Source: Ilumatobacteraceae bacterium
GTDB taxonomy: Bacteria; Actinomycetota; Acidimicrobiia; Acidimicrobiales; Ilumatobacteraceae
Direction: 5' to 3'
Length of the DNA: 64,000 nt
Assembly (NCBI GenBank): GCA_963718705.1
Contig: OY970375.1
Coordinates: 3,461,701 to 3,525,700 of the forward strand
Shown here: piece by piece, positions 18,947 to 61,282 of the stretch
How the letters are laid out: each line of letters starts with the position of its first letter
How positions within the stretch are numbered: position 1 is the first letter of the stretch
Notes under the pieces: model-generated
Seen by the model: the letters and a program-made list of their open reading frames with translations, nothing else
The model's database searches: none
Told to the model about the DNA's origin: nothing
Translations under genes and position numbers: made by a program

Positions 18947-18990
18947 CAGCCCTTCCGGACGCAAAGAAACCCCTGCTGAGCAGGGGTTTC

Positions 18991-22835: not shown

Positions 22836-23025
22836 CGCCCCCGAGGTCGTGTGGCGCGCACCCGGCGGGCAGCCAACTGCACCAAAGCGGATTCACGACC
22901 ACCAGCGGACGCCAGCTGCACCAAAGCGAGTTCGCTCCCCGAGCAGTCGTCGCCCCCGTTTCTGAAATCCACCAAAGCGCACTGCCGACCACCGGTGGTC
23001 GCCGAAACGCTTTGGTGCACTTGGG
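22836..23025. repeat. cluster of about 38-bp repeat units with core TGCACCAAAGCG(G/A)(A/T)TTCACGACC…GGTGGTCGCC (3 direct, 1 inverted, plus an inverted cgaggtcgtgtggcgcgca arm)
   Basis: aactgcaccaaagcggattcacgaccaccagcggacgcc / agctgcaccaaagcgagttcgc… / aaatccaccaaagcgcactgccgaccaccggtggtcgcc / cgctttggtgcac. Related units occur at 24466-24552. Confidence 0.65.
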
Positions 23026-24465: not shown

Positions 24466-24552
24466 CGTCGTGCGCGTGAAACGCCTTTGGTGCGCTTGGC
24501 GACCACCCGCGGTCGTGAATCCGCTTTGGTGCATTTCAACGGCGGTCGTTCA
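24466..24552. repeat. two inverted-orientation copies of the rodA-flanking 38-bp repeat unit (…cgctttggtgcattt, …cctttggtgcgc…)
   Basis: The reverse complement gives aaatgcaccaaagcggattcacgaccgcgggtggtcgcc and aagcgcaccaaaggcgtttcacgcgcacgacgacctcgc. Confidence 0.65.
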
Positions 24553-30880: not shown

Positions 30881-30915
30881 CACGTTCAAGTTGTGTCTGA
30901 CACAACTTGAACGTG
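30881..30915. repeat. 35-bp perfect palindrome cacgttcaagttgtgtc-t-gacacaacttgaacgtg (copy a of 5)
   Basis: Arms are exact reverse complements. Located 48 bp downstream of the flotillin stop and 32 bp upstream of the trpG start. Confidence 0.9.
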
Positions 30916-35312: not shown

Positions 35313-37133
35313 ATGACCGTGCGCTCCACCATCGCTGAGATCGACGCCCGCGTAGCCGGGCAGACCGTGCCGAAGCAGTTCGTCAAGATGCTGGCCGACA
35401 AGCCGGGCTTGGCGCTGCTCAAATCGGCAAGGGCCGAGGGTGGCTGGAACACGTGGACCGTGGCCGACGTCGCCGAGTTGGCCGCCCAGGCGGCGGCCGG
35501 CTGGCTGGCGCACGGCGTGCACCCGGGTGAGCGTGTGCTCTTGATGATGCGCAACCGGCCCGACTTCCACTGGCTCGACCTCGGCGCCCAGTTCGCCCGG
35601 GCAACTCCGGTCTCGATCTACAACTCGTCGTCACCCGAAGAGATCCAGTACCTCGCCGAACACGCCGAGGCCCGGGTGGCGATCGTCGAGAACGACGCCT
35701 TCCTGCAGCGGCTCCTGCAGGTGCGCGACGAGCTGCCGATGCTGACGAAGATCTTCGTGATCGATCCGCCGTCGACCGCCGACGGTGCGCTGCCCGACGG
35801 CGTCGCGCCCGTGTCGGAGTTGATGGGCCACGGCTCAGCCGATCTGGCCGCCCTGGCAGAGGGCACCAGCCCGGACGACATCGCCACGCTGATCTACACG
35901 TCGGGCACGACCGGACCGCCGAAGGGCGTGATGATCAGCCAGTACAACGTGGTGTATACCGCCGATTCGCTGTTCGAGTCGATCGAGGATCCGAGCGCCG
36001 TCGGTTGGCGGGTCGTGTCGTACCTCCCGATGGCCCACATCGCCGAGCGCATGACCAGCCACTACCGCACCATGATCGATGGGCTCGAGGTGTACTGCTG
36101 CCCCGACGTCAATGGGCTCTCTCCGATGCTCAAAGAAGTGCACCCCCAGATGCTGTTCGGCGTCCCGCGCGTGTTCGAGAAGATCTATGCCGGTGTCAAC
36201 GCAGCGATGTCGGCCGACCCGGACAGGAAGGCCCAATTCGACGACGGGGTGGCGCTGTCGACGGCCATCAACCGTGCCAAGCTCGACGGCAGCGTCACCC
36301 AGGAACAACTCGACACGCAGGCGTTCCTCGACTCGGTCGCGTTCTCGGCTATCCGCAGCATGGTCGGGCTGGACGCGATCGAGCTGGCGATCACCGGCGC
36401 AGCGCCGATCCCGGCGGCGATCCTCGAGTGGTTCAACGCGATCGGCGTGAACCTGGCCGAGATCTACGGCATGTCGGAGTCGACCGGCCCGATGACGTTC
36501 TCGCCACGCCGCAACCGGCCGGGTTACGTCGGCCAACAGATCCCCGGCTGCGAGGTCCGGATTGCCGACGACGGCGAAGTGGTGTGCCGTGGCGGCGTGG
36601 TGTTCCAGGGGTATCTCAAGCAGCCCGACAAGACCGCCGAGACGATCGTCGATGGCTGGCTGCACACCGGCGACATCGGCGTGATCGACGACGAGGGCTA
36701 CCTCAAGATCGTCGATCGCAAGAAGGAACTGATCATCACCTCGGGCGGCAAGAACATCAGCCCCGCCAACCTGGAGGCGTCGCTCAAGATGATCCCGCTG
36801 GTGGGTCAGGCATGCGCGATCGGCGACAACCGCAAGTTCATCGCCGCCCTGCTGGTGCTCGACCCTGAGGTGACGCCGGTGTGGGCCGCCGCCCACGGCA
36901 AGGCCGGCATGTCGCTGGCCGACTTGGCAGACGATCCCGACGTCCAGAACGTGGTGCAGGAGGGCGTGGAGATGATCAACCAGCAGTTCGCCTCGGTCGA
37001 GCAGATCAAGCGCTTCACGTTGATCGGCGAGGAGTGGCTCCCCGACTCCGACGTGCTGACCCCCACCTCGAAGTTGAAGCGCCGAGGCATCCACGCCCGC
37101 TACGCCGACACGATCGAGGCGATGTACGAGTAG
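35313..37133 (+). CDS. fadD: long-chain fatty-acid-CoA ligase (AMP-dependent synthetase)
   Basis: AMP-binding motif IYTSGTTGPPKGV plus the rest of the adenylation fold. Confidence 0.9.
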   Translation: MTVRSTIAEIDARVAGQTVPKQFVKMLADKPGLALLKSARAEGGWNTWTVADVAELAAQAAAGWLAHGVHPGERVLLMMRNRPDFHWLDLGAQFARATPVSIYNSSSPEEIQYLAEHAEARVAIVENDAFLQRLLQVRDELPMLTKIFVIDPPSTADGALPDGVAPVSELMGHGSADLAALAEGTSPDDIATLIYTSGTTGPPKGVMISQYNVVYTADSLFESIEDPSAVGWRVVSYLPMAHIAERMTSHYRTMIDGLEVYCCPDVNGLSPMLKEVHPQMLFGVPRVFEKIYAGVNAAMSADPDRKAQFDDGVALSTAINRAKLDGSVTQEQLDTQAFLDSVAFSAIRSMVGLDAIELAITGAAPIPAAILEWFNAIGVNLAEIYGMSESTGPMTFSPRRNRPGYVGQQIPGCEVRIADDGEVVCRGGVVFQGYLKQPDKTAETIVDGWLHTGDIGVIDDEGYLKIVDRKKELIITSGGKNISPANLEASLKMIPLVGQACAIGDNRKFIAALLVLDPEVTPVWAAAHGKAGMSLADLADDPDVQNVVQEGVEMINQQFASVEQIKRFTLIGEEWLPDSDVLTPTSKLKRRGIHARYADTIEAMYE

Positions 37134-37238
37134 CCAGCTGCTGGAGTCGCGACGCTGCGATCGCATCGCACTCGTTCGTGCACGCCGTCGCACGTCGTTT
37201 AGAGTCCGTTGCTCGACAACCGTTAAGGGGATCACACC

Positions 37239-40200
37239 ATGTCGAAGCCGCGGGCGCCTTGGGGTACTTGCTGTTCCTGACCGCAGGGACACTGTTGACG
37301 TCGTCTCCCGTTCTGCATGCCGCAGGGCCGACATTCATCGAAGGGTGGGTCACCGCCAGCTCTTCAGGCCAAGCGCTGGAAGGCATCACCGTCATCGCCA
37401 TGACCGGTGATCCCGAAGCGTCTCCGGCCGAGCCGCTCGTCACGGCGGCCACGACCACCACGGATTCCTCCGGGGCCTACTCGCTCGACGTCTCCGCCTC
37501 CGTCGCTGACCAGCCGATCTACGTCAACGTGATCGACATGCTTGACGTGTACGGCGCTGTCATGTTGCAGCCGGTCATCGTCACAGAGGGAACCACATCG
37601 ACCTCTTCGTTCTCGCTCGGCGCAGGTGGTTTCGTTCACGGCCACGTGCTGCACCACACGACGCTCGGCGACATCGGCGTCTCGGAATCCTGTGTCACCG
37701 TCCGCAACCTCGATGGATCATTGGCCGTCCCATACGAGTGGCCAGGTACATGTTCGGGACAGTTCAACGACCCCAACTACTACGCAATTCCTGCTCTCCC
37801 ACCGGGCGACTACTCGCTGTCGTTCGGAACCCCTGATCCATCGCGGTTCTGGCCGCTTCTCGACCAATTCGTGTCGGTCGAGGCCGGTGTGGCCACGGTG
37901 TTCAACCCCTCGCTGCCCTCGGCGCCACCGACGGCGTTGACCGGAGAAGTGACCGAGAGCGGAACGTCGGCACCGTTGGCCGGTGTGGACGTGGTGGTCT
38001 CCGCAACCGATCGGTTCGGCAACCCGACGAATCGGTTCGGGACCACCGACGCAGCAGGCACGTTCGACATCAACCTGGACGGGATGGGATCGGGCGTGTC
38101 GCAGTACCTGGTGAGCTTCTTCGACCCCACCGGGTCACATGCTGCGGTGATCGGTTCTTCGATCTCGATCCAGCCTGGGTACACCGAGGCGATGGCCGTC
38201 GAACTCCAGCCCGGCGGGGTGGTGAGCGGCACCATCAGCGATGCCGGTGGAGCCCCCATCGAGGGTGCCTGCGAGATCATCGAAACGCTGAGTGGCACTC
38301 CCGTGATTCCAACCGATTGGGCGCCGTGCACGGGTCCGGATGGGACCTTTCGGATCCAAGCTGTCCCAGCCGGGCAGTACCGGGTGCGGGTGTTTGCGCC
38401 TGCTGGCTGGCTGTCGACATCCTCGGGCACGCTGACGGTCACCGCCGGCGGGGTGACCGATTTCGGCATCACGCTCGAACCATTCCCCGACACCCTGATC
38501 ACCGGCGTCGTGCTCGACGAGGTCACGTCCGCGCCCATTCCGGGAGCACGGATATCCGTGACGACCACGACGAGGTACGGCGAACTCGCAGGATGGACGG
38601 CCTACGCCGACGACCAAGGCGAGTACTCCGTCGACATCGACAACGATTGGTACGGGCCGCTCTTCGACTGGATCGACACGTCACAGCCGTTCACGATCGA
38701 TGTGTTCGACGATTCGGGGGCCCACGTCGCCGAGTTCGGAGCCACGTCGCTGCTCCAGCCCGGCTATGCCGAGGCGATCGAGTTCGACCTGGCGCCCGGT
38801 GGCAACGTCGCCGGAGTGGTGACCGGTGGGGGGACCCTGCCGTTGCAAGGTGCCTGCGTGATCCTGGAGGACCTGGGCGGCAACCCGATCGTGCCGACCG
38901 ATTGGGCACCGTGCTCCGACCCGACCGGTCGCTACGCCACCGCCGGCGTCCCACCGGGCAACTACCAGGCGCGTGTGTTTGCGCCGGAGGGCTGGCTCTC
39001 ACAGACCGTCCCCGTGTCGGTGACCGTCGGCCAGACCACCCAACTCGCCGTCCACTTGCTTGCGTTCCCACCCACGGCGATCACCGGCACCGTGGTGGAG
39101 GACGGCACGGGTGCACCCCTCTCGGGCGTGCAAGTGCACGTCAGTACGACCGGATTCGGCGGGCGGCAGATTTGGTCGACCGAGACCGATGACGACGGCG
39201 TGTACGAAGTCGATCTTCACGGCTTCAGTTCGCTCGCTCCGTACCAGGTCGACTTCGTGGACCACTCAGGCACCCACATCAGCGAGTTCGGCGCCGAGGT
39301 CGCCGTACAGGTGGGCTACACGGAAGCGATCAGCGCCTCGTTGGCGCCTTCCGGAAGCATCTCGGGTGTCGTCCGAGATTCGAGCGGCAGCCCCTTGGCA
39401 GGCGCATGTGTCGTCATCGAGGATCTTGACGGCAACCCAGTCTATTCCACCGACTGGGCGCCGTGCACGCTGGGCGATGGTGCGTACACCAGCCTCGGAG
39501 TCCCCGACGGGTCGTATCAGGTCCGGGTGGTCGCTCCGCCTCGGTTCCATTCCGGTACGACGGGCCCCGTCGTGATCAGTGGCGGCTCGCCGGCCGCATT
39601 CGATCTGACGCTCCAACCGGTCGTGACTCGAATCACCGGTGTGATCACCGACGACTCCACCGGCGCCCCACTTGCCGGGCTGGTGGTCCGCACGAGGGTC
39701 AACCCCACGACGTCCCCGGCGATCTATGCGACCGACACCACCGACAGCGCCGGCTCGTTCACGCTCGACGTGAGCGACACGCCACTCGTCGACAACGGCG
39801 GGACGTTCAACCTCGACGTTGCTGACCCAACCGGTCAGTACGTGCCGAAGTCCGGAATCGCGGTGACCCCGCAACGCGGCTACGACGAACCGATCGGGCT
39901 CTCGTTGGAGTTGGCCGGTGCGATCACCGGCACGATCCGGTCGAGCGGCGGAAGTGCGATTCCGGGAGCGTGTGTCTCGGTCCGCCCGGCCGCCGCGGCG
40001 GCGAGCGCAGCGAGCACGTGCACCGGAGCCGACGGGATGTACACGTTCATGTCGTTGGCACCTGGCGCGTACGTGCTCGATGTCACGCCGCCCAACACGC
40101 TGTTCGCCGCCAACCTGGGCACGGCGACGACCGTGGTCGGTGGTCAATCCACCGCCGTCGACATCGTGTTGGCCAGTCGCCCCCCGGCGACGGTCACAGG

Positions 40201-43200
40201 GCATGTGACCGACGAGTTCGGCGCGCCGCTCCACAACGCGGTGGTCAAACTGCTGCTGCCTGGGACTAGCGAGGTGGTGGCTCAGTCGCTGAGTGAGCCC
40301 GACGGCTTCTACACCGTGATCGTCGCCGAGGGTCAGTACGACGTGTTCGTCGTCGGGCCGGCGGGAAGCGCTCTGGGCGCGTACCTCCCGAACCGATCGC
40401 TGCTCGGGGCTGCGACGCTCGACATCGCTCTCAGCGGGTTCGGGAACAGCGTGGTGGTGGCGGGTGTGGTGAGTGTTCCTGCTGGTTGGAACGGCTCGGT
40501 CCGCGTGCAATGCGGCACAGCACAAGGCACCAGCATCGTGCAACCCGACGGCTCCTACCTGGTCAGCTTCGAAGCCGTCAACCCCACCACCTGCAGTTGG
40601 GAACAGACCGGCAACAACTACTCGGCCGGCATGCAGTTCTTCAACCTCAGTCGAACGATCAACGTCACCACCGGCATCCCCACCATCATCAACGGCCCCA
40701 CCTACACACCGTTCCCGATCTCGGTCGTCAACGGCGACGGATCACCCGCCGCAACCACCCGACTGCAAATCAACCAATACGAGTACCCATACACCCCAGG
40801 ATCACCCGGCGTGCAGTTCCCCGACGGCACCATCGGCAGCCTCAACCTCAACTACGAGACCTACAACACCTCCACCACGATCGTCCCGCTGTTCGCCACC
40901 CGCACCCTCCAAGTCAGCGCCACGCTCGCCAACGGCATCACCATCAACAACTCCAACAACACCAACATCACCGGACTCACCGAACTCGTGATCGTCGCCC
41001 CGGCCTCCGCGACCGTGGTGGTGTCGGGTGTGGTGAGTGTTCCTGCTGGTTGGAACGGCTCGGTCCGCGTGCAATGCGGCACAGCACAAGGCACCAGCAT
41101 CGTGCAACCCGACGGCTCCTACCTGGTCAGCTTCGAAGCCGTCAACCCCACCACCTGCAGTTGGGAACAGACCGGCAACAACTACTCGGCCGGCATGCAG
41201 TTCTTCAACCTCAGTCGAACGATCAACGTCACCACCGGCATCCCCACCATCATCAACGGCCCCACCTACACACCGTTCCCGATCTCGGTCGTCAACGGCG
41301 ACGGATCACCCGCCGCAACCACCCGACTGCAAATCAACCAATACGAGTACCCATACACCCCAGGATCACCCGGCGTGCAGTTCCCCGACGGCACCATCGG
41401 CAGCCTCAACCTCAACTACGAGACCTACAACACCTCCACCACGATCGTCCCGCTGTTCGCCACCCGCACCCTCCAAGTCAGCGCCACGCTCGCCAACGGC
41501 ATCACCATCAACAACTCCAACAACACCAACATCACCGGACTCACCGAACTCGTGATCGTCGCCCCGGCCTCCGCGACCGTGGTGGTGTCGGGTGTGGTGA
41601 GTGTTCCTGCTGGTTGGAACGGCTCGGTCCGCGTGCAATGCGGCACAGCACAAGGCACCAGCATCGTGCAACCCGACGGCTCCTACCTGGTCAGCTTCGA
41701 AGCCGTCAACCCCACCACCTGCAGTTGGGAACAGACCGGCAACAACTACTCGGCCGGCATGCAGTTCTTCAACCTCAGTCGAACGATCAACGTCACCACC
41801 GGCATCCCCACCATCATCAACGGCCCCACCTACACACCGTTCCCGATCTCGGTCGTCAACGGCGACGGATCACCCGCCGCAACCACCCGACTGCAAATCA
41901 ACCAATACGAGTACCCATACACCCCAGGATCACCCGGCGTGCAGTTCCCCGACGGCACCATCGGCAGCCTCAACCTCAACTACGAGACCTACAACACCTC
42001 CACCACGATCGTCCCGCTGTTCGCCACCCGCACCCTCCAAGTCAGCGCCACGCTCGCCAACGGCATCACCATCAACAACTCCAACAACACCAACATCACC
42101 GGACTCACCGGGTTGTCGCTCTGGCTGATCGGCGCCGGTGAGTGGCGCGACTACGCGTTCGGCCAGTCGAGTGACGCCGACGGGGTGGATGACCTGGTCG
42201 AGGCATTCGCGCCCAACGGTGGCGATGGAAACCGCGACAACATCCCCGACTACCACCAAGCGAACGTCTCGTCGCTCCCGTCGTCCGAGGGCAACTACGT
42301 CACGTTCTCCGCACCCGTGGGGACCACCTTCGGAAACGTGCGCTCGATCGACCCCGCCACACTGGCCGTGCAGCCCGACCCCGGATACTCGCTGCCCGAA
42401 GGCTTGACCGACTTCCGGCTCGACGACATCGCGCTGATCGTCGATGAGTTCGACGTCCCGGTTCCCCAGGACGTCCTGATCTCGATCTACGCGGCGGACC
42501 TCACTGGCGTCATCGGGTACGCCAAGTTCCAGGACGAAGCGTGGACCTACCTGCCGACAGGCCGTGTGGTCATCACTCGAGATGGTGGTGTGGGACCCGG
42601 CGGGCACGTGACGATCCGGCTGACCGACGGTGGAATCGGCGATGACGACGGCGTCGTGAACGGGCAGATCGTGGACCCGGGCGGCCTGGTTCGGTTCCAG
42701 AACTCGCCACCTCAGGTCGTCCTGGGCACCCAGGGTGCGGTCGCCGAAGGGTCGCCGCAAGCGGTCGCCCTCACGATCACCGATCCAAACGGCGACGCCG
42801 TCTCGCACACGTTCGAGCTCGGAGCACCGAACGGCGACGCCGGCATGCAGTGCATTGTCGGAGGAACCGAGACGGCGCCGACCGTGCTCTGCGACGACGA
42901 CGGGCAGGTCGACCTCACCGTCCATGCGATCGACTTCCGTGGTGATACCGCTTCGGCGACCGTGACCTTGACGTTCTCCAACGTCGCTCCCGCGGTGTCG
43001 TTCGTGGTGCCGAGTTCGGTCGGGTCCGCAACCGCCGCCGTGGCTGCGGTGTCGACGACCGATGCCGGGTCAAACGACACCGTCAGCTGTGTCGTCGATT
43101 GGGGCGACGGCACCACGAGTGGCGGCTGCTCGACGGCGACGCACATCTACTCGCCCACCTCGACCACGACGTACCACCCATCCATCACGGCGACCGACGA

Positions 43201-43600
43201 CGACGGAGCGAGCACCACGTCCTCAGCGACGATCACCGTGATCGCTGCGCCGCTGTATCACTTCGGGGGGTTCCTGCAGCCGGTCGACCCCGTTCCGACG
43301 GTCAACGCCGTCAAGGCCGGGAGCGCTGTTCCGGTCAAGTTCTCGCTGGGTGGCGACTTCGGACTCAACGTGCTGACACCCGGGTACCCGACCACGGTTC
43401 GACACGCCTGCAACTCAGCAGTCGTCGACAGTATCGAGTCGACGGTTTCGACGAACGGGCCGGTGTTGACGTACAACTCCACCAGCGGGCTCTACCAGTT
43501 GACGTGGAAGACGGACAAGGCGTGGACCGGGGAGTGCCGAACCCTGATCATCAAGTTCCAGGACGGTTCGGTTGCCACAGCGGAGTTCAAGTTCAAGTGA
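37239..43600 (+). CDS. giant secreted surface/adhesin-like protein (about 2120 aa): Sec signal, at least 5 carboxypeptidase-regulatory-like (prealbumin fold) repeats alternating with a second repeat type, 3 identical 188-aa tandem repeats, an Asp-rich segment, then a PKD-like domain; start-codon frame problem
   Basis: RBS aaggggatcacacc-ATG at 37239 gives MSKPRAPW… but is +1 relative to the long frame (…ALGYLLFLTAGTLLTSSPVLHAAGP). Repeats of the form ITGxVxDxxxGAPLxGxxV…DxxGxYxxD. PKD signature VDWGDGTT…THIY. Confidence 0.75.
40447..42110. repeat. three near-perfect tandem copies of a 564-bp (188-aa) coding repeat inside the giant adhesin gene
   Basis: ORFs 40473-40991 and 41037-41555 translate to identical 172-aa strings. 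The shadow-frame motif WLERLGPRAMRHSTRHQH recurs every 188 aa. Unit 1 differs by gcgggtgtg versus tcgggtgtg at its start. Confidence 0.85.
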
Positions 43601-44954: not shown

Positions 44955-44998
44955 GACCACACGTTCAACTTGTGTCTGACACAACTTGAACGTGGTCA
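44955..44998. repeat. palindrome copy b: gaccacacgttcaacttgtgtc-t-gacacaacttgaacgtggtc (22-bp arms, one arm mismatch caact/caagt)
   Basis: Read directly. It abuts the stop codon of the aminotransferase gene and lies 19 bp upstream of the MarR start. Confidence 0.9.
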
Positions 44999-46225
44999 CG
45001 CGGTGGCCTTGAGGGCGTTTGTGAACGCTTGCACGGCTTCGTCGATCTCGTCGGCGGTGACGACCAACGGCGGCATCCAACGGATCACGTTGCCGTAGGT
45101 GCCGGCGTTCATGAGGATCACGCGGCCCTCGCGCAGGCAGTGCTGGATCACTGGCGCCACCCGGGTCGGCTCGGAGAAGCTGGTTCCCACCATGAGGCCG
45201 GGGCCGCGCACCTGGCGGATCACCGGGAACGAGTCCTGTAAGCCGCGGATGGCGTCGCTGAGCTGCGCGCCACGGGCATTGATGTTCTCGAAGAAACCGG
45301 GCTGCTGCATCACGTCGATCGTGGCCAGCGCCGCCGCGCATCCCATCGAGTTGCCGCCGTACGTGCCGCCGTGGCTGCCCTTCGGCCAAAGGTCGTCGAG
45401 CTGGCGCCGCGTGCCGAGCGCCGCGAACGGGAATCCGGAGGCGATCCCCTTGGCCATGCAGATGATGTCGGGCCGAACGTCGTAGCGATCGATCGCGAAC
45501 CACGAACCGGTGCGCCCGAAACCGCTCTGGACCTCGTCGGCGATGAACAGGATCCCGTGCTCGCGACAGCGCTTGGCGACACCTTCCAGGAAGGCCGCCG
45601 GCACCGGCACGTATCCGCCTTCGCCGAGCACCGGCTCGATGATCACCGCTGCCGTCTCCGACGGGGCGGTCTCGGCCAGCAGCAGCCGGTCGAACCCGCG
45701 CAGGGCGGCGTTGACGGCAGCCTCTTGGTCCGACGCCAGTGGATCGGGGAACGGCGACACGTACACGCCGCCGGGCAGCGGAGCATGGCCGGCGCGGTAG
45801 CCGGTCTTGGACGTGGTCATCGCCATCGCCATGTGCGTGCGACCGTGGAACGAGCCCTGGAACACGATGATGTTGGGCCGCTTGGTGGCCTGCTTGGCCA
45901 GCTTGACGGCGGCTTCGGTGATCTCGGCACCGGAGTTGGCGAAGAAGAACGTGTCGATCCCGTCCGGCGTGATCTCGTTCAGCTTCTCGGCGAGCGGCTC
46001 CGCCAGGTCGTGTGTGAACACGTTGATCTGGGCGTGGATGAAGCGCTCGGCCTGGGCGGCGATCGCAGCGGCGATCGCCGGGTGGGCATGCCCGGTCGAG
46101 TTGACGGCGATCCCGGCGGTGAAGTCGAGGTACTCCACGCCGTCGGTGGTGGTGACCCTGCACCCCTTGCCGTGCGAGACCTGCAGGTCAGTGACCTTGA
46201 ACCAGACGTTCGACAGATGTGACAT
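44996..46225 (-). CDS. gabT: class-III pyridoxal-phosphate aminotransferase (4-aminobutyrate aminotransferase-like)
   Basis: …GHAHP…FIADEVQSGFGRTG…MAKGIASGFP (PLP-binding Lys). Confidence 0.88.
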   Translation of the reverse strand: MSHLSNVWFKVTDLQVSHGKGCRVTTTDGVEYLDFTAGIAVNSTGHAHPAIAAAIAAQAERFIHAQINVFTHDLAEPLAEKLNEITPDGIDTFFFANSGAEITEAAVKLAKQATKRPNIIVFQGSFHGRTHMAMAMTTSKTGYRAGHAPLPGGVYVSPFPDPLASDQEAAVNAALRGFDRLLLAETAPSETAAVIIEPVLGEGGYVPVPAAFLEGVAKRCREHGILFIADEVQSGFGRTGSWFAIDRYDVRPDIICMAKGIASGFPFAALGTRRQLDDLWPKGSHGGTYGGNSMGCAAALATIDVMQQPGFFENINARGAQLSDAIRGLQDSFPVIRQVRGPGLMVGTSFSEPTRVAPVIQHCLREGRVILMNAGTYGNVIRWMPPLVVTADEIDEAVQAFTNALKATA

Positions 46226-46316
46226 GGGGCGAGCCTATTCGCGCCGGCCGGCAGCGCCGGACAAGCCGCTGCAGGTCCCGTGCGCAACGTCAGGATTCGG
46301 TGAACTTGATCAAGCC

Positions 46317-49300
46317 TTGAGAGAAGGTCTCGCCCGCCGGCGCCGATCAAGATCCGTGAGAACAGCGTTGTTGGGTGCCGCCGCGTGCGTGCTGACGGCC
46401 GGCGTGATCGCCATCCCCGGTGGATTCGACCTGGCAGGCGCGAGCGACGGGCCCGACATCGTGATCTCCGAGGTCATGATCGACTCACTCGACGTGTACG
46501 ACTCACGCGGCGAGTGGATCGAGTTGACCAACCGCGGCGACGAGACCGGCAAGGTGGCGGGCTGGAAACTGAGCGACGGGCGAACCGAGAACGTGACGCT
46601 CCCCAACCTGTCGATCGCACCCGGTGAGCAGGTCGTGCTGGCCCGGCTCGGTGACCCGTTCGCGAACGGTGGTGCCACCGCCGACTGGGTGTACGGCAAC
46701 GCGATCGTGCTCGACAACGTGTCGGACCGCCTGATCCTCACCGACGACCACGGTACCGAACACGGCCGCGTGGACTGGTACCCGGGCACCGGGATCAAGG
46801 CGCCGATCGGTCGATCGCTGGCGCTCCGTGACGTGCACGGCAACATCGGTGACCCCGCCAGTTGGTGTGCCGAGACGACCGTGATGGTGCGCGGCGACCT
46901 CGGGAGCCCTGGCACCGCCAACAACTGTTCGGCGCCCGCCGAGCCGCTGGTGATCACCGAGGTGATGCAGAACCCGCGCCGCGTCGGCGACTCGACCGGC
47001 GAATGGTTCGAGCTCTACAACCCGGGCGACCTGCCGATCGACATCGCCGGCTGGACCATCAAGGACGACGACCGTGACCGCTTCGTGGTGCCGTCCTCGG
47101 TGATCGTGCCGGCAGGCGGTTACGCAGTGCTCGGCAACAGCGCGATCGCCAACGGCGACGTGCCGCTCGACTACGTGTACGGCGTTTCGATGGCGCTCCA
47201 GAACGACTGGGACGAACTCGCCATCGCCGACGAGGCCGGCACCCTGGTGGACCGCCTGGCGTGGGACAACGGCCGAAGCTTCCCCGACCCCGACGGCGCC
47301 TCGATGTCGCTGACCGACCCGTTGGTGGACAACGCCACGGGTGCTGCGTGGTGCACCGCCAGCACGTCGTGGGCGATCGGCGACCGCGGTACACCGCACG
47401 CCGGCTCCTGGTGCACGCCTCCCGGCGCCACTCCGATCGTGATCACCGAGGTCATGTTCGACCCGGAGATCCCGTCCTCGGAGCGCGCCTCGGAATGGTT
47501 CGAAGTCGCCAACCTCGGCACCGCCCCGATCGACATGACGGGCTGGACGATCACGGCCGGTGACTCCAAGATGCACACGATCGACGGGCTCGTGGTCGCC
47601 CCCGGCGACCTGGCCGTGCTTGCCGCAAGTGGCGACCCCGTCGCCAGCGGAGGGGTCACCGCCGACTACGTGTACGGCACCAACCCAGATCTTCCGCTCT
47701 ACAACAAGAGCGGCCGCCTGATCCTGAAGACCACCGCCGGGGCGATCGTCGACCGCGTCGAGTGGAATGCCGCCAAGGGCTTCCCGATCCCCGTCGGGGC
47801 CTCGATCACACTCGGTTTCGCCACCGCCAACAACGAACTCGGCGCCAACTGGTGCATCGCCTCGGCCCGCTGGGGTGCCACCGACTTCGGGTCGCCCGGC
47901 CAGCTGAGCGGCTGCGAGCCGCCCCCTGCCGCCCCCGCCGTCGTGATCAGCGAAGTGCTGCGCAACCCGGCTGCCGTCGGCGACAGCAAGGGCGAATGGT
48001 TCGAACTCCACAACACCACTGCCGAACCGGTCGACATCCAGGGCTGGAGCCTGACCGACGGTACCTCCGACCGGCACGCGATCCGCGACTCGATCGTGAT
48101 CCCCGCCGGCGGCTACTTCGTGCTCGGCCGCAGCTCCGATACTGCGACCAACGGCGGTGCCCGCATCGACTACGTGTACGGCGACGGTTTCGTGCTCAGC
48201 AACGACACCGATCGGATCACCGTCCGCGATCGCTCCGACCAACTCGTCGACGACACCAGTTGGGTGCGCGGCGACGGCTCGCCGCGCCCGAACGGCGCAT
48301 CGATGGCTCGGACCGATGCCGGGTGGTGCGTGTCGGGTCCGCAGTTCGGCGCCGGTGACCTGGGCACGCCCGGGGCGGCCAACGACTGCACCCCGCTCCC
48401 CCACGTCGACGTCGTGGTCAGCGAGGTCCAACTCGACCCGACCACCGTGAGCGACACGGTCGGTGAGTGGATCGAGATCACCAACAACTCGGGGCAACCG
48501 GTCGACCTGGCGGGTTGGCGTCTGCGCGACGAGGACGCCGACGCCCACACGATCGGCTCATCGGTCGTCGTGCCGCCCGGCCGCTCGGTCGTGCTCGGGC
48601 GTGACAAGGCGGCCGCCCTGAACGGCGGTGTGCCGGTGAACTACAGCTACGGCTCGGCGTTCCCGCTCAACGACACCGACGACGAGATCGTGCTGCTCGA
48701 CACCCAGGGCGTGTGGGTCGACCGCATCACCTGGACCCCCGACCACCTGTTGCCGTACGCGGCGGGCGCATCGGCGTCGCTGCGCACCCTCGCCAGCGAC
48801 AACGCCGACCCGGCCAACTGGTGCACGTCGATCACGCCGTATGCAAGCGGCGCCGACCGCGGCACCCCCGGCGCCGCCAACCTGTGCGAGATCGCACCGG
48901 CCGCCACGACCACGACCACGATCGCCACCACGGTGCCGCCCACGACGTCCACCACGTCCACGACGAGCACCACCAGCACCACGACCCTGCCGACGACCAC
49001 CACATCGACGACCACATCGACCACCACCACCTCGACCACGACCAGCACGACGACGACCGTGCCGCCGGCGCCGCCGGTCCGGCCGGCCTCGGTCGGATTC
49101 GGGATCCTCGCCACCGGGCCCGCCAACTGCGGCAACGGGCTGATGCTCACGGCGTCCAACATGCGAGTCGCCGGCGGCGTGCGCTCCAACGGCAACGTCA
49201 CGATCCAGGGCAGCAGCATGGTGATCGACGGCACGATCTCGTACGCCGGTTCACCCAAGGTGGGGCAGGTCACCTCCGCTGGGCTCGTCAAGGACACCAA

Positions 49301-49746
49301 CCCAACGGTTCCCGGCTGGAACTGGACCGTCGCCGACTTCGCCCCCGGCACGCCGATGTCGACCCGGCCCGGATACGTCGCCCACCCGTCGAACTGGACA
49401 GCCGGCTCCGGCGTCACCCTCGGCATCCACTTCGTGGCCGGCAACGTCACGATCTCGGCCTCGCAGGTCGATCTGCGAGGCGTCACGATCGTCGCCACCG
49501 GCACGGTCACGATCTCGGGGTCGGGCGTCACGCTCTCGCCCGCGTCACTCGGATCTGCCGACCGTGCTGGCGGGCGGCGGTTCGTGCTGGAACTCGGCCA
49601 TCAACGTGAGCGGTTCGAACACCACCTGGAGCGGCGTGCTGATGGCACCCAATGGCGCCGCAGCAGTGAACGCCAGCAACGTGCGCGGCGGGTCGCTGAT
49701 CGCCCTGTCGATCCAGTCCAGCGGCAGCGACCTGCAGTTCAGCTGA
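46317..49746 (+). CDS. secreted protein with five tandem lamin-tail-domain (LTD) repeats, a Thr/Ser-rich linker and a C-terminal beta-rich domain; frameshift near 49560 (ORF track reads through to 49886 in the wrong frame)
   Basis: Five repeats of the form (V/I)ISEV(M/L)…G(E/D)W(I/F)EL(T/Y/H)N…(V/I)D(L/I)xGW(K/T/R/S)(L/I)xD…. Signal-like N-terminus RRRRSRSVRTALLGAAACVLTAGVIAIP. C-terminal continuation DLPTVLAGGGSCWNSAINVSGSNTTWSGVLMAPNG…SDLQFS in the +1 frame. Confidence 0.75.
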
Positions 49747-49756
49747 AGCGCGGCGG

Positions 49757-50956
49757 CTACAAGGCTGCGGCGTGGGCCCGGGCGGCCTGGACCGTGCCAC
49801 GTTCGAGCAGCAGGCTGCGGAACGACATCAACTGCTTGGCGGCGTTCATGCCGAGCACCCCGCGAAGTCGGTCACCACGCGAGTAGAGGGCCAGGAACTT
49901 GCGGTCCTCCACCGAGCCCCACACGACTTCGGCGTGGTCGTCGGCGCCGGCGCGACCGATGAACTGGATCCGGCGGTCGTACTGCTCGCTCCAGAAGAAC
50001 GGCACCGGCGCGTACGTCTCGGTGGGCTCGCCACGCGACTCGGCGAGCAGGTTGGCGGCGGCCAGCGCGCCCTGCTCGGCGGCGTTGGTCCAGTGCTCGA
50101 CGCGCATCTCCTCGTCGAACAGCTCGTTGTACCAGCGCACGATGTCGCCGGCGGCGTAGACGAGCGGGACCCCCACGTTGAGATCGGCGCCGCACACGAC
50201 GCCGTCTCGGACCTCCAGCCCGCTCCCTTCCAGCCAGTCGGTCACGGGCGTCACGCCGATCCCGACCACCACCACATCGGCCGCTTCGCGCCCACCGTCG
50301 ACGAGGACGACACCCGGTTCGAGCCCGTCGACCTTGACGCCGCAGCGCACCTCGACGCCGTGGTCGGCATGGATCGATGCGACGGCGCGACCCATCTCGG
50401 ACCCGAGACCACGGATCAGGGGCGCCGGCGCGCCTTCCAGCACGAGCACCTCGTTGCCGAGCTTGCGGGCCGTCGACGCCACCTCCAGGCCGATGAACCC
50501 GGCCCCGATCACCACCACCCGACGACCGCCGCCGGCGATCCGCCGGCGCAGGTCGAGCGCGTCGTCGAGCGAGCGCAGCACCACCACGTCGGGCAACTCC
50601 GCCTGACCCGGCAGCTGTCGCGCCGATGCACCGGTGGCGATGATCAGACCGTCGAAGTCGACCGAGCTGCCGTCGGCGAGACCGACGCGGCGCGCCTCGA
50701 GGTCGAGCCCCACGGCACGCTGCCCCAACCGCCACGTGACCTCGATCGAATCCATCTCGTCGGGATGGCGCAGGGCGATCCGATCGGGCTCCCATTCGCC
50801 GGAGAGCACACGCTTCGACAGCGGTGGACGGTCGTACGGATGATGCGGCTCGTCGCCGATGATCGTGACCCTCCCCTCGAAGCCGGCCGTCCGGAGCGAT
50901 TCGGCGGCGCGCAGACCCGCCAACGAGCCACCCACGATCACGATGTTGTCGAGCAT
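49757..50956 (-). CDS. FAD/NAD(P)-dependent oxidoreductase, ferredoxin/rubredoxin reductase family
   Basis: Two Rossmann GxGxxG motifs (IVIVGGSLAGL…; VVVIGAGFIGLEVA). Start assigned to the internal ATG (MLDNIVIVGG). Confidence 0.85.
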   Translation of the reverse strand: MLDNIVIVGGSLAGLRAAESLRTAGFEGRVTIIGDEPHHPYDRPPLSKRVLSGEWEPDRIALRHPDEMDSIEVTWRLGQRAVGLDLEARRVGLADGSSVDFDGLIIATGASARQLPGQAELPDVVVLRSLDDALDLRRRIAGGGRRVVVIGAGFIGLEVASTARKLGNEVLVLEGAPAPLIRGLGSEMGRAVASIHADHGVEVRCGVKVDGLEPGVVLVDGGREAADVVVVGIGVTPVTDWLEGSGLEVRDGVVCGADLNVGVPLVYAAGDIVRWYNELFDEEMRVEHWTNAAEQGALAAANLLAESRGEPTETYAPVPFFWSEQYDRRIQFIGRAGADDHAEVVWGSVEDRKFLALYSRGDRLRGVLGMNAAKQLMSFRSLLLERGTVQAARAHAAAL

Positions 50957-54342: not shown

Positions 54343-54950
54343 GTGTTCTGGCAAGCATCGTTGTTCGGCGGGCAAGCACCCGAGTTCGACGCCGAGTTCG
54401 GCGAGTTGCACCGGATCCAGCTCGACGCCCGTTCCTGGATCGATCACGCTCCGGGCTGGCTGACCGGCTCGGACCAACTGTTCGACGAGCTCAGCGGCAT
54501 GCTGGCGTTCCACCAGCGCACCGGCGTCAAAATGTACGACCGGTTGGTGGACGAACCGCGCCTGACCGCCTGGTGGAAAGTGTCGAGCGGCTCCGCCGAA
54601 CCGCTGCCGATCCTGGCCTCGATGCGGCACCTGCTCGCCGACCGCTACACCGAGCCGTTCGACTCGATCGGGTTCAACCTGTACCGCGACGGCAACGACT
54701 CGGTCGCCTGGCATGCCGATCGCCACGCTCACGTGGTCACCAACCCGGTGATCGCAATCGTCAGCGTCGGCGCGCCGCGCGCCCGTTCCGCGTGCGGCCG
54801 ATGAGCGGCGGTGGGTCGTTGTCGTGGAACCTCGGCAACGGCGACCTGTTCGTGATGGGCGGCGCCTGCCAGCACGAGTGGGAGCACACCGTGCCCAAGG
54901 TGCGCCGCACCGACGGCCCGCGCATGAGCCTCACCTTCCGCTCGGTCTGA
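54343..54950 (+). CDS. alkB: AlkB-family 2OG-Fe(II) dioxygenase (DNA/RNA alkylation repair), single frameshift near 54785
   Basis: …VAWHADRHAHVVTNPVIAIVSVGAPR in frame 1, then …SLSWNLGNGDLFVMGGACQHEWEHTVPKVRRTDGPRMSLTFRSV in the next frame. Confidence 0.7.
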
Positions 54951-55126
54951 ACCACACCGGAATCGGCCACACCGCCGGCGTGGACAGTGGCGTTCACCGG
55001 CTGCTCCGCGACGTCGCACGACGGGACACACTCGGCCTACGGTCCGCCGCACCGACGGCCCGCGCATGAGCCTCACCTTCCGCTCGGTCTGATCGACACC
55101 GGAATCGGCCACACTGCTGGGGTGGA
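54903..55126. repeat. 82-bp direct repeat (about 93% identity; copies 54903-54984 and 55045-55126) duplicating the alkB 3' end and stop codon into the spoU upstream region
   Basis: cgccgcaccgacggcccgcgcatgagcctcaccttccgctcggtctga(a/t)c(c/g)acaccggaatcggccacac(c/t)gc(c/t)gg(c/g)gtgga appears twice. Confidence 0.85.
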
Positions 55127-58038: not shown

Positions 58039-60467
58039 ATGGACGACACGATCGACCAAACCTCGACGTTCCGCAAGCGGCCGTCCCCGGCGGCGATCCT
58101 GGCCGTGGTCGGCTTCAGCGTGTTCGTGGCAGCCGACGACCTGACCGTCGTCTCCACCATGCTGCGCCCGATCATCGGCGACCTCGGGCTGGTGTTGCCC
58201 GACGGGCTCGACGACGCGGCGTGGGTGGTCAACGCCTACCTGATCGCATTCGTGGCGATCATGCCGATCGCCGGCCGGATCAGCGACGTGCTCGGGCGGC
58301 GGCGCACGTTCATCGGCGCCTACACGATCTTCCTGCTCGGCTCGATCCTGATCCCCTACACGACGATGCTCGACGACCCCTCGTACCGCTGGTTCCTGGT
58401 TGGCCGCGTGATGACGGCGATCGGCGGCGGGGCGATGGTGCCGGTGGCGTTGGCGGTGATCGGCGACGTGTATCCCGAGGGCCGGCGGGCCGAGCTCTCG
58501 GCACGCTCGGAGCGATCGAGACGCTGGGCTGGGTGTGGGGCCCGCTGTACGGCGCCGTGCTCGTGCGGTTCCTGTCGTGGCAGTGGCAGTTCTGGCTCAA
58601 CATCCCGCTGGCACTGGTGGGCATGGCGGCAGCATGGTGGGCGCTGGCCGACCACGACCGCCCGCAACACGGCGCCCGGATCGACTGGACGGGCGCCTCG
58701 CTGCTCACGATCGCGCTGGTGTCGCTCAACGTGGCGCTGCTCGGCTCGGCCGAGATCCAGAGCGTCAACGGGCTGCAGGAACTCACCGGTCAGGGTGCCG
58801 ACCTGCGCTGGCTGTACCCGGTGGCGCTGGTGGCCGGCGCGTTGTTCGTGTGGCAGCAGCGCCACAGCCGCAACCCACTGATCGACCGGCGCATGTTCCG
58901 GCTGTCCGAGCGCTCGGGGCGCAACCTCGTGGCAGCACTGGTCGTGAACTTCGTGGTCGGGGCCGGGCTCGTGATCGCCATGGTCGACGTGCCGCTGTTC
59001 ATCAACTCGGTCGAATTGAACCTCGAACACGCAGCCGTGATCTCTGGCTGGATCATGTCGGCGATGACCGCCGCGATGGCGGTCACGTCGTACCTCGGTG
59101 GCCGGATCACCGAACGGGTCTGGTTCCGGCCACCGGTGCTGGCGGGCGTGGCGATGTCGACCGCCGCCTACGCCTGGATGGGCGCGACGTGGAACGTCGA
59201 CACGTCGTACCCGGTGTTCGCACTGCAGCTGGCGCTGCTCGGCGCCGGGTTCGGACTCACCGTGGCACCCACCACCAGCGCCGTGGTGGACCAGGCGCCG
59301 CCCGACCAGCGCGGTGCGGCGGCCTCGATCGTGATGGTCGTACGCCTGCTCGGCCTGTCGGTCGGACTCTCGGCGCTCACGGCGTGGGGCCTGGCCCGGT
59401 TCAACGCCCTGCGCTCGACGATCGACCTGCCCCCGCTCACCGACCCCGGCTTCGACAAAGCGCTGCAAGCAGCCTCCGAAACCCTGACCGCCAAGGCGAT
59501 CGCCGAAACCTTCACCGCCGCCGCCGTGGTGGTCGGCGCCGGTCTGATCGCCACCTTCGTCATGCGCCGCGCCGACGCACCAGGAGCTCTCATGAACACC
59601 GAACACACCGAACAGCCCGACCCGGACGAACTGCTGATCGCCCATGTCGACGGCACGACCGACCAGCCGATCGACCAGCTGGTCGACCAGCCCGCCGCTG
59701 CGCCGATCGAGCCGGGCCTGTTGCCCGAACCGATGCCGATGCCGCAACCGGTCCACGCCGCGGTCGGGGCGGTGGCGATCGACGCCTTGCAACGGCGGCT
59801 CAACGTGTTGATCGGCATGCTGGGTCTGCTGCTGGCAGCCGCCTTCGTCACGATCGCGCTGCTGTTCGGGCGCGTCGGCGACGCCCGCGCCGACGCCTCG
59901 GCGGCCCGAACCGAGGCATTGGCGGCCCGAACCGAGCTCGACACGGCTCGCTCCGATCTGGAACGGGTCGAGGCCGGTGCGGCGCTGTACGCCTCGCAGA
60001 TCGACGGGTTCCAGTCGAAGCTGACCGAGCTGCAACCCCAGATCGCCGAAGGCGTGCAATCGGCGATCGACGGGTTGCGTGAGTTCGGTGGCTCCACGAT
60101 CACGTTCCCGGTCAAGATCGACCAGGTGCTCCCGATCGACACCGAGGTCAAGATCCAGCGCACCGTGCAGGTGCCGATCAAGACCACGATCCCGATCAAG
60201 CAGTCGTTCGACACCACGATCCAGATCAGCACGCCGCTCGGCAAGGTGCCGCTCGACGTGACGGTGCCGGTCAACGTGGACGTGCCGATCGACCTGGTGG
60301 TCGACATCCCGATCGACGAGACGGTGCCGATCAAGGACGAGTTCCCGATCAAGCTCGACATCCCGATCTCGATCGACGTCGGCCAGACCGAACTGGCCAA
60401 CCTCACCGAGTCGATCGCAGCCGGGCTCGAGTCGTTGCAGGCCATGCTCGACGGGCTCGGCACCTGA
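58039..60467 (+). CDS. MFS efflux transporter (P55-like) with a roughly 300-aa C-terminal extension (coiled coil plus VP(I/V)D-type short repeats); single frameshift near 58495
   Basis: N-terminal MFS helices in frame 1 to …GDVYPEGRRA. Continuation GALGTLGAIETLGWVWGPL… in frame 0 (14 TM in total). The tail reads …ARTEALAARTELDTARSDLERVEAGAALYASQIDGFQSKLTELQ…PIKTTIPIKQSFDTTIQISTPLGKVPLDVTVPVNVDVPIDLVVDIPIDETVPIKDEFPIKLDIPISIDV. Confidence 0.75.
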
Positions 60468-61269: not shown

Positions 61270-61282
61270 AACCCGTCGCTGA

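What the first reader, a model, noticed from the sequence alone, without database searches (positions are those of the whole stretch)
40447..42110. Three nucleotide-identical 564-bp tandem repeats inside the 2239-aa surface protein gene
Each unit encodes the same 188 aa (…VSVPAGWNGSVRVQCGTAQGTSIVQPDGSYLVSFEAVNPTTCSWEQTGNNYSAGMQFFNLSRTINVTTGIPTIINGPTYTPFPISVVNGDGSPAATTRLQINQYEYPYTPGSPGVQFPDGTIGSLNLNYETYNTSTTIVPLFATRTLQVSATLANGITINNSNNTNITGLTELVIVAPASATVV). Perfect DNA identity over 1.7 kb implies very recent duplication or ongoing homogenisation. It makes copy number a likely phase-variable trait. The true copy number may differ if the assembly collapsed or expanded the repeats.
Basis: seen in the sequence. 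Interest (0 to 1): 0.6.

Follow-up and report, generated by a model that had tools for sequence, protein, structure and literature searches.

The report
Triplicated domain in secreted giant protein
A giant secreted bacterial protein gene carries one 188-amino-acid module copied three times in a row with essentially no DNA differences, a recent in-frame duplication of a well-known kind that probably lets the protein's length vary between cells.

Summary
The repeat is real, with small corrections. A 564-nt period runs from 40450 to 42110 (1661 nt, 2.95 copies). There are two full copies and a third cut 33 nt short, with one mismatch (40460, Ala/Ser). It lies in frame in a large secreted all-beta protein of an actinobacterium-like genome. 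The architecture is a signal peptide, about 10 CarboxypepD_reg domains, the array, then choice-of-anchor U, PKD and PxKF domains.

The 188-aa unit matches no Pfam, NCBIfam or PDB entry. It is nevertheless a real module. The metagenomic relative P0001 aligns collinearly across the same region and has three modules there, only 25-30% identical to each other.

Junction anatomy fits a recent triplication of exactly one module (2-nt microhomology), followed by an 11-codon microhomology deletion at the end of copy 3.

Synonymous sites are identical too, so the identity reflects recency or recombination, not protein-level selection. The expected consequence is gain and loss of 188-aa modules, that is length variation as in Periscope, Alp or Rib proteins. 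It is not on/off phase variation, because the unit is a multiple of 3.

Copy number and perfect identity cannot be checked without reads. No close relative exists in any collection searched, so copy-number polymorphism is untested.

Verdict: an ordinary kind of feature, built from an undescribed module.

The parts
36881..43600 (+). Longest ORF (2239 codons plus stop) holding the array. The likely real CDS starts at GTG 37178, about 2140 aa.
   Evidence: GC3 is 0.80-0.85 along the ORF. The upstream gene 35313-37133 (AMP-binding enzyme, GC3 0.91) overlaps the first 253 nt.
37178..37321 (+). Probable Sec signal peptide: VHAVARRLESVARQPLRGSHHVEAAGALGYLLFLTAGTLLTSSPVLHA|AG.
   Evidence: Read from the translation. 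No signal-peptide predictor was available, so this is an inference.
37225..37241 (+). Strong Shine-Dalgarno AAGGGGA plus ATG (37239), one base out of frame with the big ORF. With one extra base the N-terminus would read MSKPRAPWGYLLFLT...
   Evidence: This is either a 1-nt indel in the assembly or a real frameshift. It was not resolved.
37931..40186 (+). Four old, diverged super-repeats (SR1-SR4) of ~184-194 aa, each made of two CarboxypepD_reg domains.
   Evidence: 28-43% aa and 45-55% nt identity between them. CarboxypepD_reg gives 10 stretches at E 1.7e-71.
40187..40450 (+). Single CarboxypepD_reg-like domain directly upstream of the array. It is the left-flank anchor of positional homology with P0001.
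   Evidence: 40% identical to P0001 residues 5-73 (E 1e-11). It is the best match of P0001's N-terminus anywhere in the protein.
40450..41013 (+). Repeat copy 1 (564 nt; codons 40451-41014 encode VVVAG...APASAT). It carries the only mismatch, G at 40460.
41014..41577 (+). Repeat copy 2 (564 nt), identical to copy 1 except at the position equivalent to 40460.
41578..42110 (+). Repeat copy 3, partial (533 nt, 177 codons). It is identical to copy 2 up to 42110 and lacks the last 11 codons. The breakpoint tetranucleotide ACCG (42107-42110) recurs 33 nt further on in copies 1 and 2.
42110..42382 (+). Unique segment GLSLWLIGAG...APNGGDGN, conserved in relatives. It is the right-flank anchor of positional homology.
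   Evidence: Alignment A2 is 44-56% identical to P0001, P0002, P0005, P0008 and P0009.
42383..42691 (+). Choice-of-anchor U domain.
   Evidence: NCBIfam NF041766, E 6.1e-11, ORF residues 1835-1937.
42980..43240 (+). PKD domain.
   Evidence: Pfam PF18911, E 3.1e-07, ORF residues 2034-2120.
43268..43597 (+). C-terminal PxKF ('rightmost') domain.
   Evidence: NCBIfam NF038114, E 1.4e-35, ORF residues 2130-2239.

Best explanation
The array is a recent, in-frame tandem triplication of one complete 188-aa structural module. It sits in a large secreted multi-domain beta protein of an actinobacterium-like organism.

Inferred history, from junction anatomy:
1. An ancestor had one module, VVVxG...APASAT, between the last CarboxypepD_reg domain and the 'GLSLWLIGAG' segment.
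2. An illegitimate tandem duplication at a 2-nt (CG) microhomology produced two copies.
3. One substitution arose beside the junction (40460).
4. Homologous unequal crossing-over between the 564-nt copies produced the third copy.
5. A 33-nt deletion between two ACCG tetranucleotides removed the last beta-strand codons of copy 3.

Continuing homogenisation by intragenic recombination is a sub-variant that the data do not exclude.

Three ~560-nt direct repeats are now perfectly identical. Homologous recombination, replication slippage or single-strand annealing should therefore add or delete whole 188-aa modules at appreciable frequency without breaking the frame. The expected phenotype is length variation of an extracellular rod- or stalk-like protein (Periscope-like), not on/off switching.

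Shown here: the repeat, its frame, its boundaries, the homology of the module to the diverged modules of P0001, and the domain architecture.

Inferred: the order of events, secretion or surface location, the fold, and any copy-number variability.
For: - Exact identity over 1086 nt at offset 564, with one mismatch and a truncated third copy.
- The unit is 3x188 nt, and GC3 of 0.84 is seen only in the gene frame.
- The unit boundaries coincide with module boundaries in the alignment with P0001, P0002 and P0005 modules.
- The unit scores 26.7 bits against P0001, versus at most 5.9 bits in 294 shuffles.
- A single collinear BLASTP alignment pairs P0001 5-782 with window protein 1015-1837 (30% identity, E 4e-56). 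It spans the left-flank domain, three modules and the choice-of-anchor U region.
- P0001's modules are 25-30% identical in aa and 42-48% in nt. The gene's own older super-repeats are 45-55% identical in nt. The 100% identity here is therefore recent.
- Junctions: CG microhomology at the duplication junction, and ACCG at the copy-3 breakpoint recurring exactly 33 nt (in frame) later in copies 1 and 2. Restoring those 33 nt gives 1694 = 3x564+2 nt.
- Relatives keep a terminal strand before 'LWLxGA' that copy 3 lacks.
- Literature on the kind: long tandem repeats (>50 aa, >=80% identity) with high DNA identity define candidate Periscope Proteins, whose length varies by intragenic recombination (PMC8201768). 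R28 has 13 identical 79-aa repeats and varies in size among isolates (PMC7098570). Direct repeats of 438 bp delete at about 6.5e-4 in D. radiodurans, and a single mismatch lowers that 4.8-fold (PMC4627823).
Against: - There are no reads, so neither copy number nor perfect identity is verified.
- No close relative was found, so no copy-number polymorphism has been observed.
- The ACCG recurrence has about a 5% chance of arising in frame by accident. The 33-nt deletion step is therefore suggestive only.
- P0001 also has three modules at this position, which could instead mean that a three-module array is ancestral here.
- There are only three copies, embedded in a long series of diverged domains. 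There is no LPXTG or membrane anchor. This differs from typical Periscope architecture.
- The module fold is unknown (pLDDT 41.7).
- A possible frameshift at the start codon leaves open whether the gene is intact.
Confidence: 0.6

Rival explanations
1. Concerted evolution of an ancestral three-module array. The lineage always had about three modules, as P0001 does, and they have been kept identical by continual gene conversion and unequal crossing-over, rather than being born recently from a single module.
For: - P0001 has exactly three modules in the same position, flanked by the same domains.
- There is a weak mosaic hint. The unit's N-half is closest to P0001 module 1 (SW z 6.8 against 0.4 and 1.4). 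Its C-half is closest to module 3 (z 13.2 against 6.4 and 3.3).
- Identity stops short of the outer 3' edge of the array, as expected when homogenisation cannot cross into unique sequence.
Against: - Homologous exchange needs near-identical DNA. Modules as diverged as P0001's (42-48% nt) could not start converting each other, so homogenisation would have to have been unbroken since the array arose.
- Identity reaches the very first codons of copy 1. With the 33-nt gap restored, the tract is an exact 3x564+2 nt, which is the signature of duplication junctions rather than conversion tracts.
- P0005 has about two modules, so three is not a fixed ancestral number.
- The mosaic signal is small, and P0005 module 1 contradicts it for the C-half.
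Confidence: 0.2
2. Assembly artefact. The true locus has a different copy number (a repeat loop traversed an arbitrary number of times), or the copies differ slightly and were made identical by graph collapse or consensus polishing.
For: - A 564-nt perfect repeat is longer than short reads. In a de Bruijn graph the copies form one loop, so identity is imposed and the count is a guess.
- A possible 1-nt indel at the gene's start (SD+ATG one base out of frame) hints at imperfect consensus.
- The source genome is absent from all collections searched, so there is no independent copy.
Against: - The array has biologically sensible asymmetries that an artefact would not invent: one junction-adjacent substitution in copy 1 only, and a third copy ending at a microhomology 11 codons early, in frame.
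- The window has no N and is contiguous across the array in a contig of at least 64 kb, which short-read assemblers rarely achieve across such repeats.
- A relative has three modules at the same place.
Confidence: 0.15
3. The identity is maintained by purifying selection on the protein sequence of three old copies.
For: None specific, beyond the fact that the copies encode identical protein.
Against: - All synonymous positions are identical as well: 0 differences in 1086 nt.
- Elsewhere in the same gene, identical amino acids in old repeats use the same codon only 35-52% of the time.
Confidence: 0.01

Closest known systems
Periscope Proteins (Whelan et al. 2021, PMC8201768): SasG/Aap, Rib/alpha C/R28, Sgo_0707 SHIRT arrays, Esp, CdrA
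   Same: Long (>50 aa) tandem domain repeats with near-100% identity at the DNA level, inside a secreted multi-domain protein. The unit is a whole number of codons and of structural modules. The expected mechanism is intragenic recombination that adds or removes whole domains and so changes protein length.
   Different: - Only 2.95 copies are present, not 5-20.
- The array sits between diverged beta-sandwich domains rather than forming the whole stalk.
- There is no LPXTG or other recognised anchor, and no identified ligand-binding head.
- The unit is 188 aa and two-lobed, with no Pfam family.
- The host is an environmental-type high-GC actinobacterium.
- Length variation between strains, the property that defines the class, could not be tested.
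Fibrillar adhesin-like proteins with CarboxypepD_reg / SdrD_B / PKD stalk domains (Monzon et al. 2021, PMC8286594; listed, not read)
   Same: A very long secreted protein built almost wholly of Ig-like or transthyretin-like beta-sandwich domains in tandem.
   Different: No adhesive head domain or anchor was recognised here, and most of its stalk domains are diverged as usual. The finding concerns only the three identical modules.
Metagenomic relatives P0001 (1082 aa, ENA ERZ26165887), P0002 and P0005
   Same: The module family and local architecture are shared: CarboxypepD_reg domain, ~185-aa modules, a 'LWLxGA...APNGGDGN' choice-of-anchor U region, then further Ig-like domains. P0001 also has three modules.
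   Different: Their modules are 20-30% identical to each other and to the window's unit, except P0001 module 3 against the P0002 module (65%). There is no DNA-level repetition, the proteins are much shorter, and their C-terminal ends differ.
Contingency loci / phase variation by simple sequence repeats
   Same: Repeat-mediated, reversible, high-frequency mutation in a surface-protein gene.
   Different: Phase variation relies on short units not divisible by 3, or on promoter spacing, to switch expression on and off. Here the unit is 564 nt (3x188), so changes keep the frame and alter size only.

Membership tests
Periscope Proteins (PMC8201768) | [quoted passage not shown] | tested here: met
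   188-aa unit. Copies are 187/188 and 177/177 identical. The criterion is quoted from the paper's methods.
Periscope Proteins (PMC8201768) | [quoted passage not shown] | tested here: met
   1086 nt are exact at offset 564, with one mismatch in 1661 nt.
Periscope Proteins (PMC8201768) | Repeat number varies among strains or close homologues | not testable with these tools
   No close relative was found in the genome, metagenome or protein collections. Distant relatives have ~2 and 3 diverged modules.
Periscope Proteins (PMC8201768) | Repeats are folded domains forming an elongated stalk | tested here: inconclusive
   The single-sequence AF2 model is all-beta but has pLDDT 41.7. The N-half is weakly CarboxypepD_reg-like. 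The C-half has no match.
Periscope Proteins (PMC8201768) | Cell-surface anchoring with a distal functional domain | tested here: inconclusive
   A signal-peptide-like N-terminus is present. There is no C-terminal LPXTG and no hydrophobic anchor. The C-terminus is a PxKF domain of unknown role.
Alp/Rib family (alpha C, Rib, R28) | Rib-domain repeats of ~79 aa plus an LPXTG anchor | tested here: not met
   Pfam reported no Rib-domain match in the protein or the unit. There is no C-terminal LPXTG.
CarboxypepD_reg domain (PF13620), for the 188-aa unit | Match to the Pfam model at or above the gathering score | tested here: not met
   The unit gave 0 families at E<=1, and none of the 6 family members hit the model at E<=5. 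Only remote signals exist: SusC N-terminal domain at E 0.019, and hhalign probability 65% over 47 columns for the N-half.
PxKF / choice-of-anchor U proteins (NCBIfam NF038114, NF041766), for the whole protein | Matches above the curated cut-offs | tested here: met
   NF038114 scores 122 bits against a cut-off of 35. NF041766 scores 43 bits against a cut-off of 32.
Phase-variable contingency locus | A change in repeat number switches the reading frame or promoter on and off | tested here: not met
   The unit is 564 = 3x188 nt and lies wholly inside the CDS.

The most novel reading that the evidence does not exclude
The 188-aa unit would be the founding member of an undescribed two-lobed beta module family. 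So far the family is seen only in this gene and three metagenomic proteins among several billion searched. On this reading the window has caught the birth of a length-variable (Periscope-like) stalk: an exact module-boundary triplication in a non-pathogen actinobacterial protein that uses a PxKF/choice-of-anchor type C-terminus instead of LPXTG. That would extend the length-variation strategy to environmental high-GC bacteria and to a new domain type.
Probability: 0.3. Interest if true: 0.45.

Novelty: new member of a known kind. Interest (0 to 1): 0.33.

Why it matters
If the three copies are real, this is a clean natural example of how multi-domain extracellular proteins grow. One whole module was copied exactly at its structural boundaries, and there has not yet been time for the divergence between neighbouring domains that is thought to protect against misfolding. 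It is also a candidate for length variation outside the pathogen-centred set in which such proteins have been described.

Practically, the locus is a warning flag for assembly and annotation: copy number may be wrong, and the start codon is uncertain. It is also a ready PCR marker for strain or population heterogeneity.

The finding does not open a new mechanism. Identical intragenic tandem repeats in bacterial surface proteins, and their recombinational instability, are well documented.

Tried and rejected
- **Frame error of mine.** window:40450-41013 is one base out of the gene's frame, and it has no stop codons because the array keeps that frame open. As a result, the unit searches (protein 2), the first structure job and the single exhaustive representative search say nothing about the real unit. 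The one hit is a low-complexity match to the wrong-frame peptide.
- **In-frame unit searches.** Pfam found nothing at E<=1. The 5.8-billion-cluster word-indexed search found nothing. PDB sequences gave nothing. Metagenome contigs gave nothing. The unit peptides used among the patterns in the genome-contig scan found no relative.
- **Structure.** AF2 without an alignment gave pLDDT 41.7. A fold search was not run, because such a model gives meaningless matches.
- **Wider search for the module family.** Sixty metagenome loci encoding choice-of-anchor-U relatives were scanned with the module HMM. Only P0001's own locus matched.
- **Synteny with P0005.** A class-III aminotransferase lies downstream in both loci, but the two enzymes are only 27% identical, so they are not orthologous.
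- **Internal duplication within the unit.** Comparing the N-half with the C-half by hhalign gave probability 0.2%.
- **Foreign origin of the unit.** GC3 matches the rest of the gene (0.84 against 0.80-0.85). The lower GC comes from Asn/Thr/Ile-rich first positions. The unit does prefer NNC over NNG codons more than the rest of the gene does (Thr ACC:ACG 22:3 against 82:69; Gly GGC:GGG 13:0 against 78:46). This was noted and is not explained.
- **Source genome.** Exact-protein look-ups for three housekeeping genes found nothing on record.
Full report
**1. The observation**

A self-comparison at an offset of 564 nt gives one unbroken identical run, 40461-41546 against 41025-42110 (1086 nt). At an offset of 1128 nt, 522 nt are identical. 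The repeat finder places three in-register copies at 40450, 41014 and 41578. TRF reported nothing only because its longest period is 500.

Reading the boundaries gives three details:
- The periodic tract begins at 40450.
- It has a single mismatch at 40460. Copy 1 has G (GCG, Ala). Copies 2 and 3 have T (TCG, Ser).
- It ends at 42110.

The array is therefore 1661 nt, or 2.95 copies: two full units and a third of 533 nt (177 of 188 codons).

**2. The gene**

The array lies in the longest ORF of the window (36881-43600, + strand).
- GC by codon position shows the gene frame is the coding one inside the unit: GC3 is 0.84 there and 0.51 in the other two frames.
- The first ~85 codons of the ORF overlap the preceding acyl-CoA-synthetase-type gene (35313-37133, GC3 0.91) and encode Arg-rich sequence.
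- The first plausible in-frame start is GTG 37178. It gives an N-terminus with a charged stretch, a hydrophobic core and '...VLHA|AG', which looks like a Sec signal peptide. This is an inference, as no predictor was available.
- The best Shine-Dalgarno (AAGGGGA) precedes an ATG at 37239 that is one base out of frame. One extra base would give MSKPRAPWGYLLFLT.... This is either an assembly indel or a real frameshift, and it was not resolved.

Domain content is as follows:

| Region | Domain | Evidence |
|---|---|---|
| Upstream of the array | ~10 CarboxypepD_reg domains | E 1.7e-71 |
| Downstream | Choice-of-anchor U (NF041766) | |
| Downstream | PKD | |
| C-terminus | PxKF (NF038114) | |

There is no C-terminal LPXTG and no hydrophobic anchor.

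The neighbouring genes are ordinary chromosomal ones: thiolase, MarR, a class-III aminotransferase, an M23 peptidase, and a 1359-aa protein with five lamin-tail domains. The window also carries the fhaA-pstP...pknB(PASTA) cluster with trpG, and an LprG-type lipoprotein plus an MFS transporter. From established knowledge, this combination is typical of Actinomycetota.

**3. What the unit is**

The in-frame 188-aa unit (window:40451-41014) found nothing in any direct search:
- Pfam at E<=1
- the word-indexed search of 5.8 billion protein clusters
- PDB sequences
- metagenome or genome contigs
- the rest of its own protein

A search with the third copy plus the C-terminal region found 12 proteins. 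Two of them, P0001 and P0002, carry ~180-aa modules just upstream of the conserved 'LWLxGA...APNGGDGN' segment, and these modules resemble the unit.
- The unit scores 26.7 bits against P0001, versus at most 5.9 bits for 294 shuffled units.
- Iterated search resolves three full-length modules in P0001 (79-257, 260-438, 451-616), one in the N-terminally truncated P0002, and at least one in P0005.
- A single BLASTP alignment joins P0001 5-782 to window protein 1015-1837, numbered from 37178 (30% identity, E 4e-56). It runs through the CarboxypepD_reg domain before the array, all three modules and the choice-of-anchor U region.
- P0001's N-terminal domain matches that particular window domain (40%, E 1e-11) and no other.

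The array is therefore positionally homologous to three modules in P0001. Those modules are only 25-30% identical in protein and 42-48% in DNA.

None of the six family members hits any Pfam model. None of 60 further metagenome loci with choice-of-anchor-U relatives contains the module. The family is small and undescribed.

On the fold:
- The single-sequence AF2 model is all-beta but unreliable (pLDDT 41.7).
- A profile of the family weakly matches the CarboxypepD_reg-like N-terminal domain of a SusC homologue (E 0.019).
- hhalign gives 65% probability that the N-terminal half is related to the gene's own CarboxypepD_reg domains (27% with the whole module).
- The C-terminal half matches nothing.

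**4. How recent, and by what route**

The same gene contains four older super-repeats of nearly the same period (~187 aa, two CarboxypepD_reg domains each). They are 28-43% identical in protein and 45-55% in DNA. Identical residues in them use the same codon only 35-52% of the time.

Against that background, zero differences over 1086 nt, synonymous sites included, cannot be protein-level conservation. The identity must come from recent duplication or from recombinational homogenisation.

The junctions favour duplication:
- The left flank and the unit end share only CG next to the junction.
- The copy-3 breakpoint tetranucleotide ACCG recurs exactly 33 nt later, in frame, in copies 1 and 2.
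- Restoring those 33 nt makes the tract 1694 = 3x564+2 nt. That is exactly three modules, VVVxG...APASAT.
- The relatives all keep a terminal hydrophobic strand before 'LWLxGA', which copy 3 lacks.

The most economical history is: one module, then an illegitimate tandem duplication, one substitution next to the junction, unequal crossing-over to three copies, and finally an 11-codon microhomology deletion at the 3' edge.

The alternative is unbroken concerted evolution of an ancestral three-module array. P0001's count of three supports it, as does a weak mosaic signal in which the N-half is closest to P0001 module 1 and the C-half to module 3. However, it needs continuous homogenisation, because modules as diverged as P0001's could not recombine homologously. 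The mosaic signal is also small and is partly contradicted by P0005.

**5. What it should do**

This part is inferred. Perfect direct repeats of ~560 nt are good substrates for RecA-dependent exchange, replication slippage and single-strand annealing. For scale, 438-bp direct repeats in Deinococcus delete at about 6.5e-4, and a single mismatch lowers that 4.8-fold (PMC4627823).

Every such event here adds or removes 188 codons and keeps the frame. The expected trait is protein length variation, not phase (on/off) variation.

This is the logic of Periscope Proteins, a class whose length is proposed to vary by intragenic recombination. Candidates were screened as tandem repeats of >50 aa at >=80% identity (PMC8201768). 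It is also the logic of the Alp/Rib/R28 proteins, for example the 13 identical 79-aa repeats of R28 with size variation among isolates (PMC7098570).

The window's protein meets the sequence criteria. The defining property, copy-number differences among close relatives, could not be tested. Its architecture also differs: three copies only, embedded among diverged domains, with no recognised anchor or head.

**6. Artefact question**

Without reads, neither the copy number nor the perfect identity can be verified. In a short-read graph the copies would be one loop, so identity would be imposed and the count uncertain. Polishing of long-read assemblies can also erase small differences.

Several points argue against a pure artefact:
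- the copy-1-only substitution
- the in-frame, microhomology-flanked truncation of copy 3
- the contiguity of the window
- the three-module relative

I put this rival at about 0.15.

**7. Verdict**

This is a real-looking, near-perfect 2.95-copy in-frame triplication of an undescribed 188-aa beta module in a secreted giant protein. The kind of feature is well known. This instance is new and modestly interesting for the clean junction anatomy and for the contrast with a relative whose three modules are old. Interest is 0.33; novelty is 'new member of a known kind'.

Noticed in passing
window 848-19077: Probable integrated mobile element next to tRNA-Leu(CAG) (18994-19077, minus strand). A 69-nt partial copy of the tRNA 3' end lies at 848-916. 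Inside are a TrwC relaxase (7318-8325), a tyrosine integrase (10252-11352), a Fic protein (11476-12372), an RHS-repeat ORF (15055-16716) and an HTH protein. GC3 is ~0.75 here against 0.85-0.92 in the rest of the window.
   Followed up: partly
window 30882-30914, 44961-44993, 60467-60499, 61282-61314, 61341-61373: Five copies of a 33-nt near-perfect palindrome, ACGTTCAAGTTGTGTCTGACACAACTTGAACGT (0 expected by chance). All appear to lie between ORFs. Changes in one arm are mirrored in the other. As RNA it folds at -28.6 kcal/mol (z -4.6). It could be a REP-like hairpin or terminator, or a dimeric operator.
   Followed up: partly
window 37225-37264: The strong SD AAGGGGA plus ATG 37239 is one base out of frame with the giant ORF. 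One extra base (for example in the G-run 37261-37264) would give a textbook signal peptide, MSKPRAPWGYLLFLT.... This is either an assembly indel or a genuine frameshift at the 5' end of the gene.
   Followed up: partly
window 40451-42109: Each unit has 8 N-x-S/T sequons, against 3.8 expected from its composition (P 0.014). The other 1587 residues of the protein have only 4. The unit also prefers NNC over NNG codons much more than the rest of the gene does, which gives a local GC skew of -0.21.
   Followed up: partly
window 37931-40186: Four old super-repeats of ~187 aa (two CarboxypepD_reg domains each) have nearly the same period as the 188-aa unit. They are 28-43% identical in aa, with a conserved Cys pair in the second domain.
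   Followed up: yes
window 45807-49886: A second large ORF (1359 aa) two genes downstream has five lamin-tail domains (E 3.6e-91) with a diverged ~490-504-nt period.
   Followed up: no
window 22875-22926 and 24485-24536: A 52-nt inverted repeat (83% complementary) with arms 1558 nt apart, lying inside the rodA/pbpA-like part of the fhaA-pknB cluster. It could be an IS- or MITE-like element.
   Followed up: no
window 54885-54984 and 55027-55126: A 100-nt direct repeat (89% identity), spaced 142 nt apart. It includes what looks like the end of a coding region (...CTCGGTCTGA), just upstream of and overlapping the start of the SpoU methylase ORF.
   Followed up: no
L007 1102-4350 (P0001): The closest relative has no signal peptide. 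It starts at a GTG 28 nt from a divergent Kelch gene on a 3x-coverage contig, so it may be a truncated or mis-assembled version of a longer gene. It is followed by several other giant PKD/cadherin-like ORFs.
   Followed up: no
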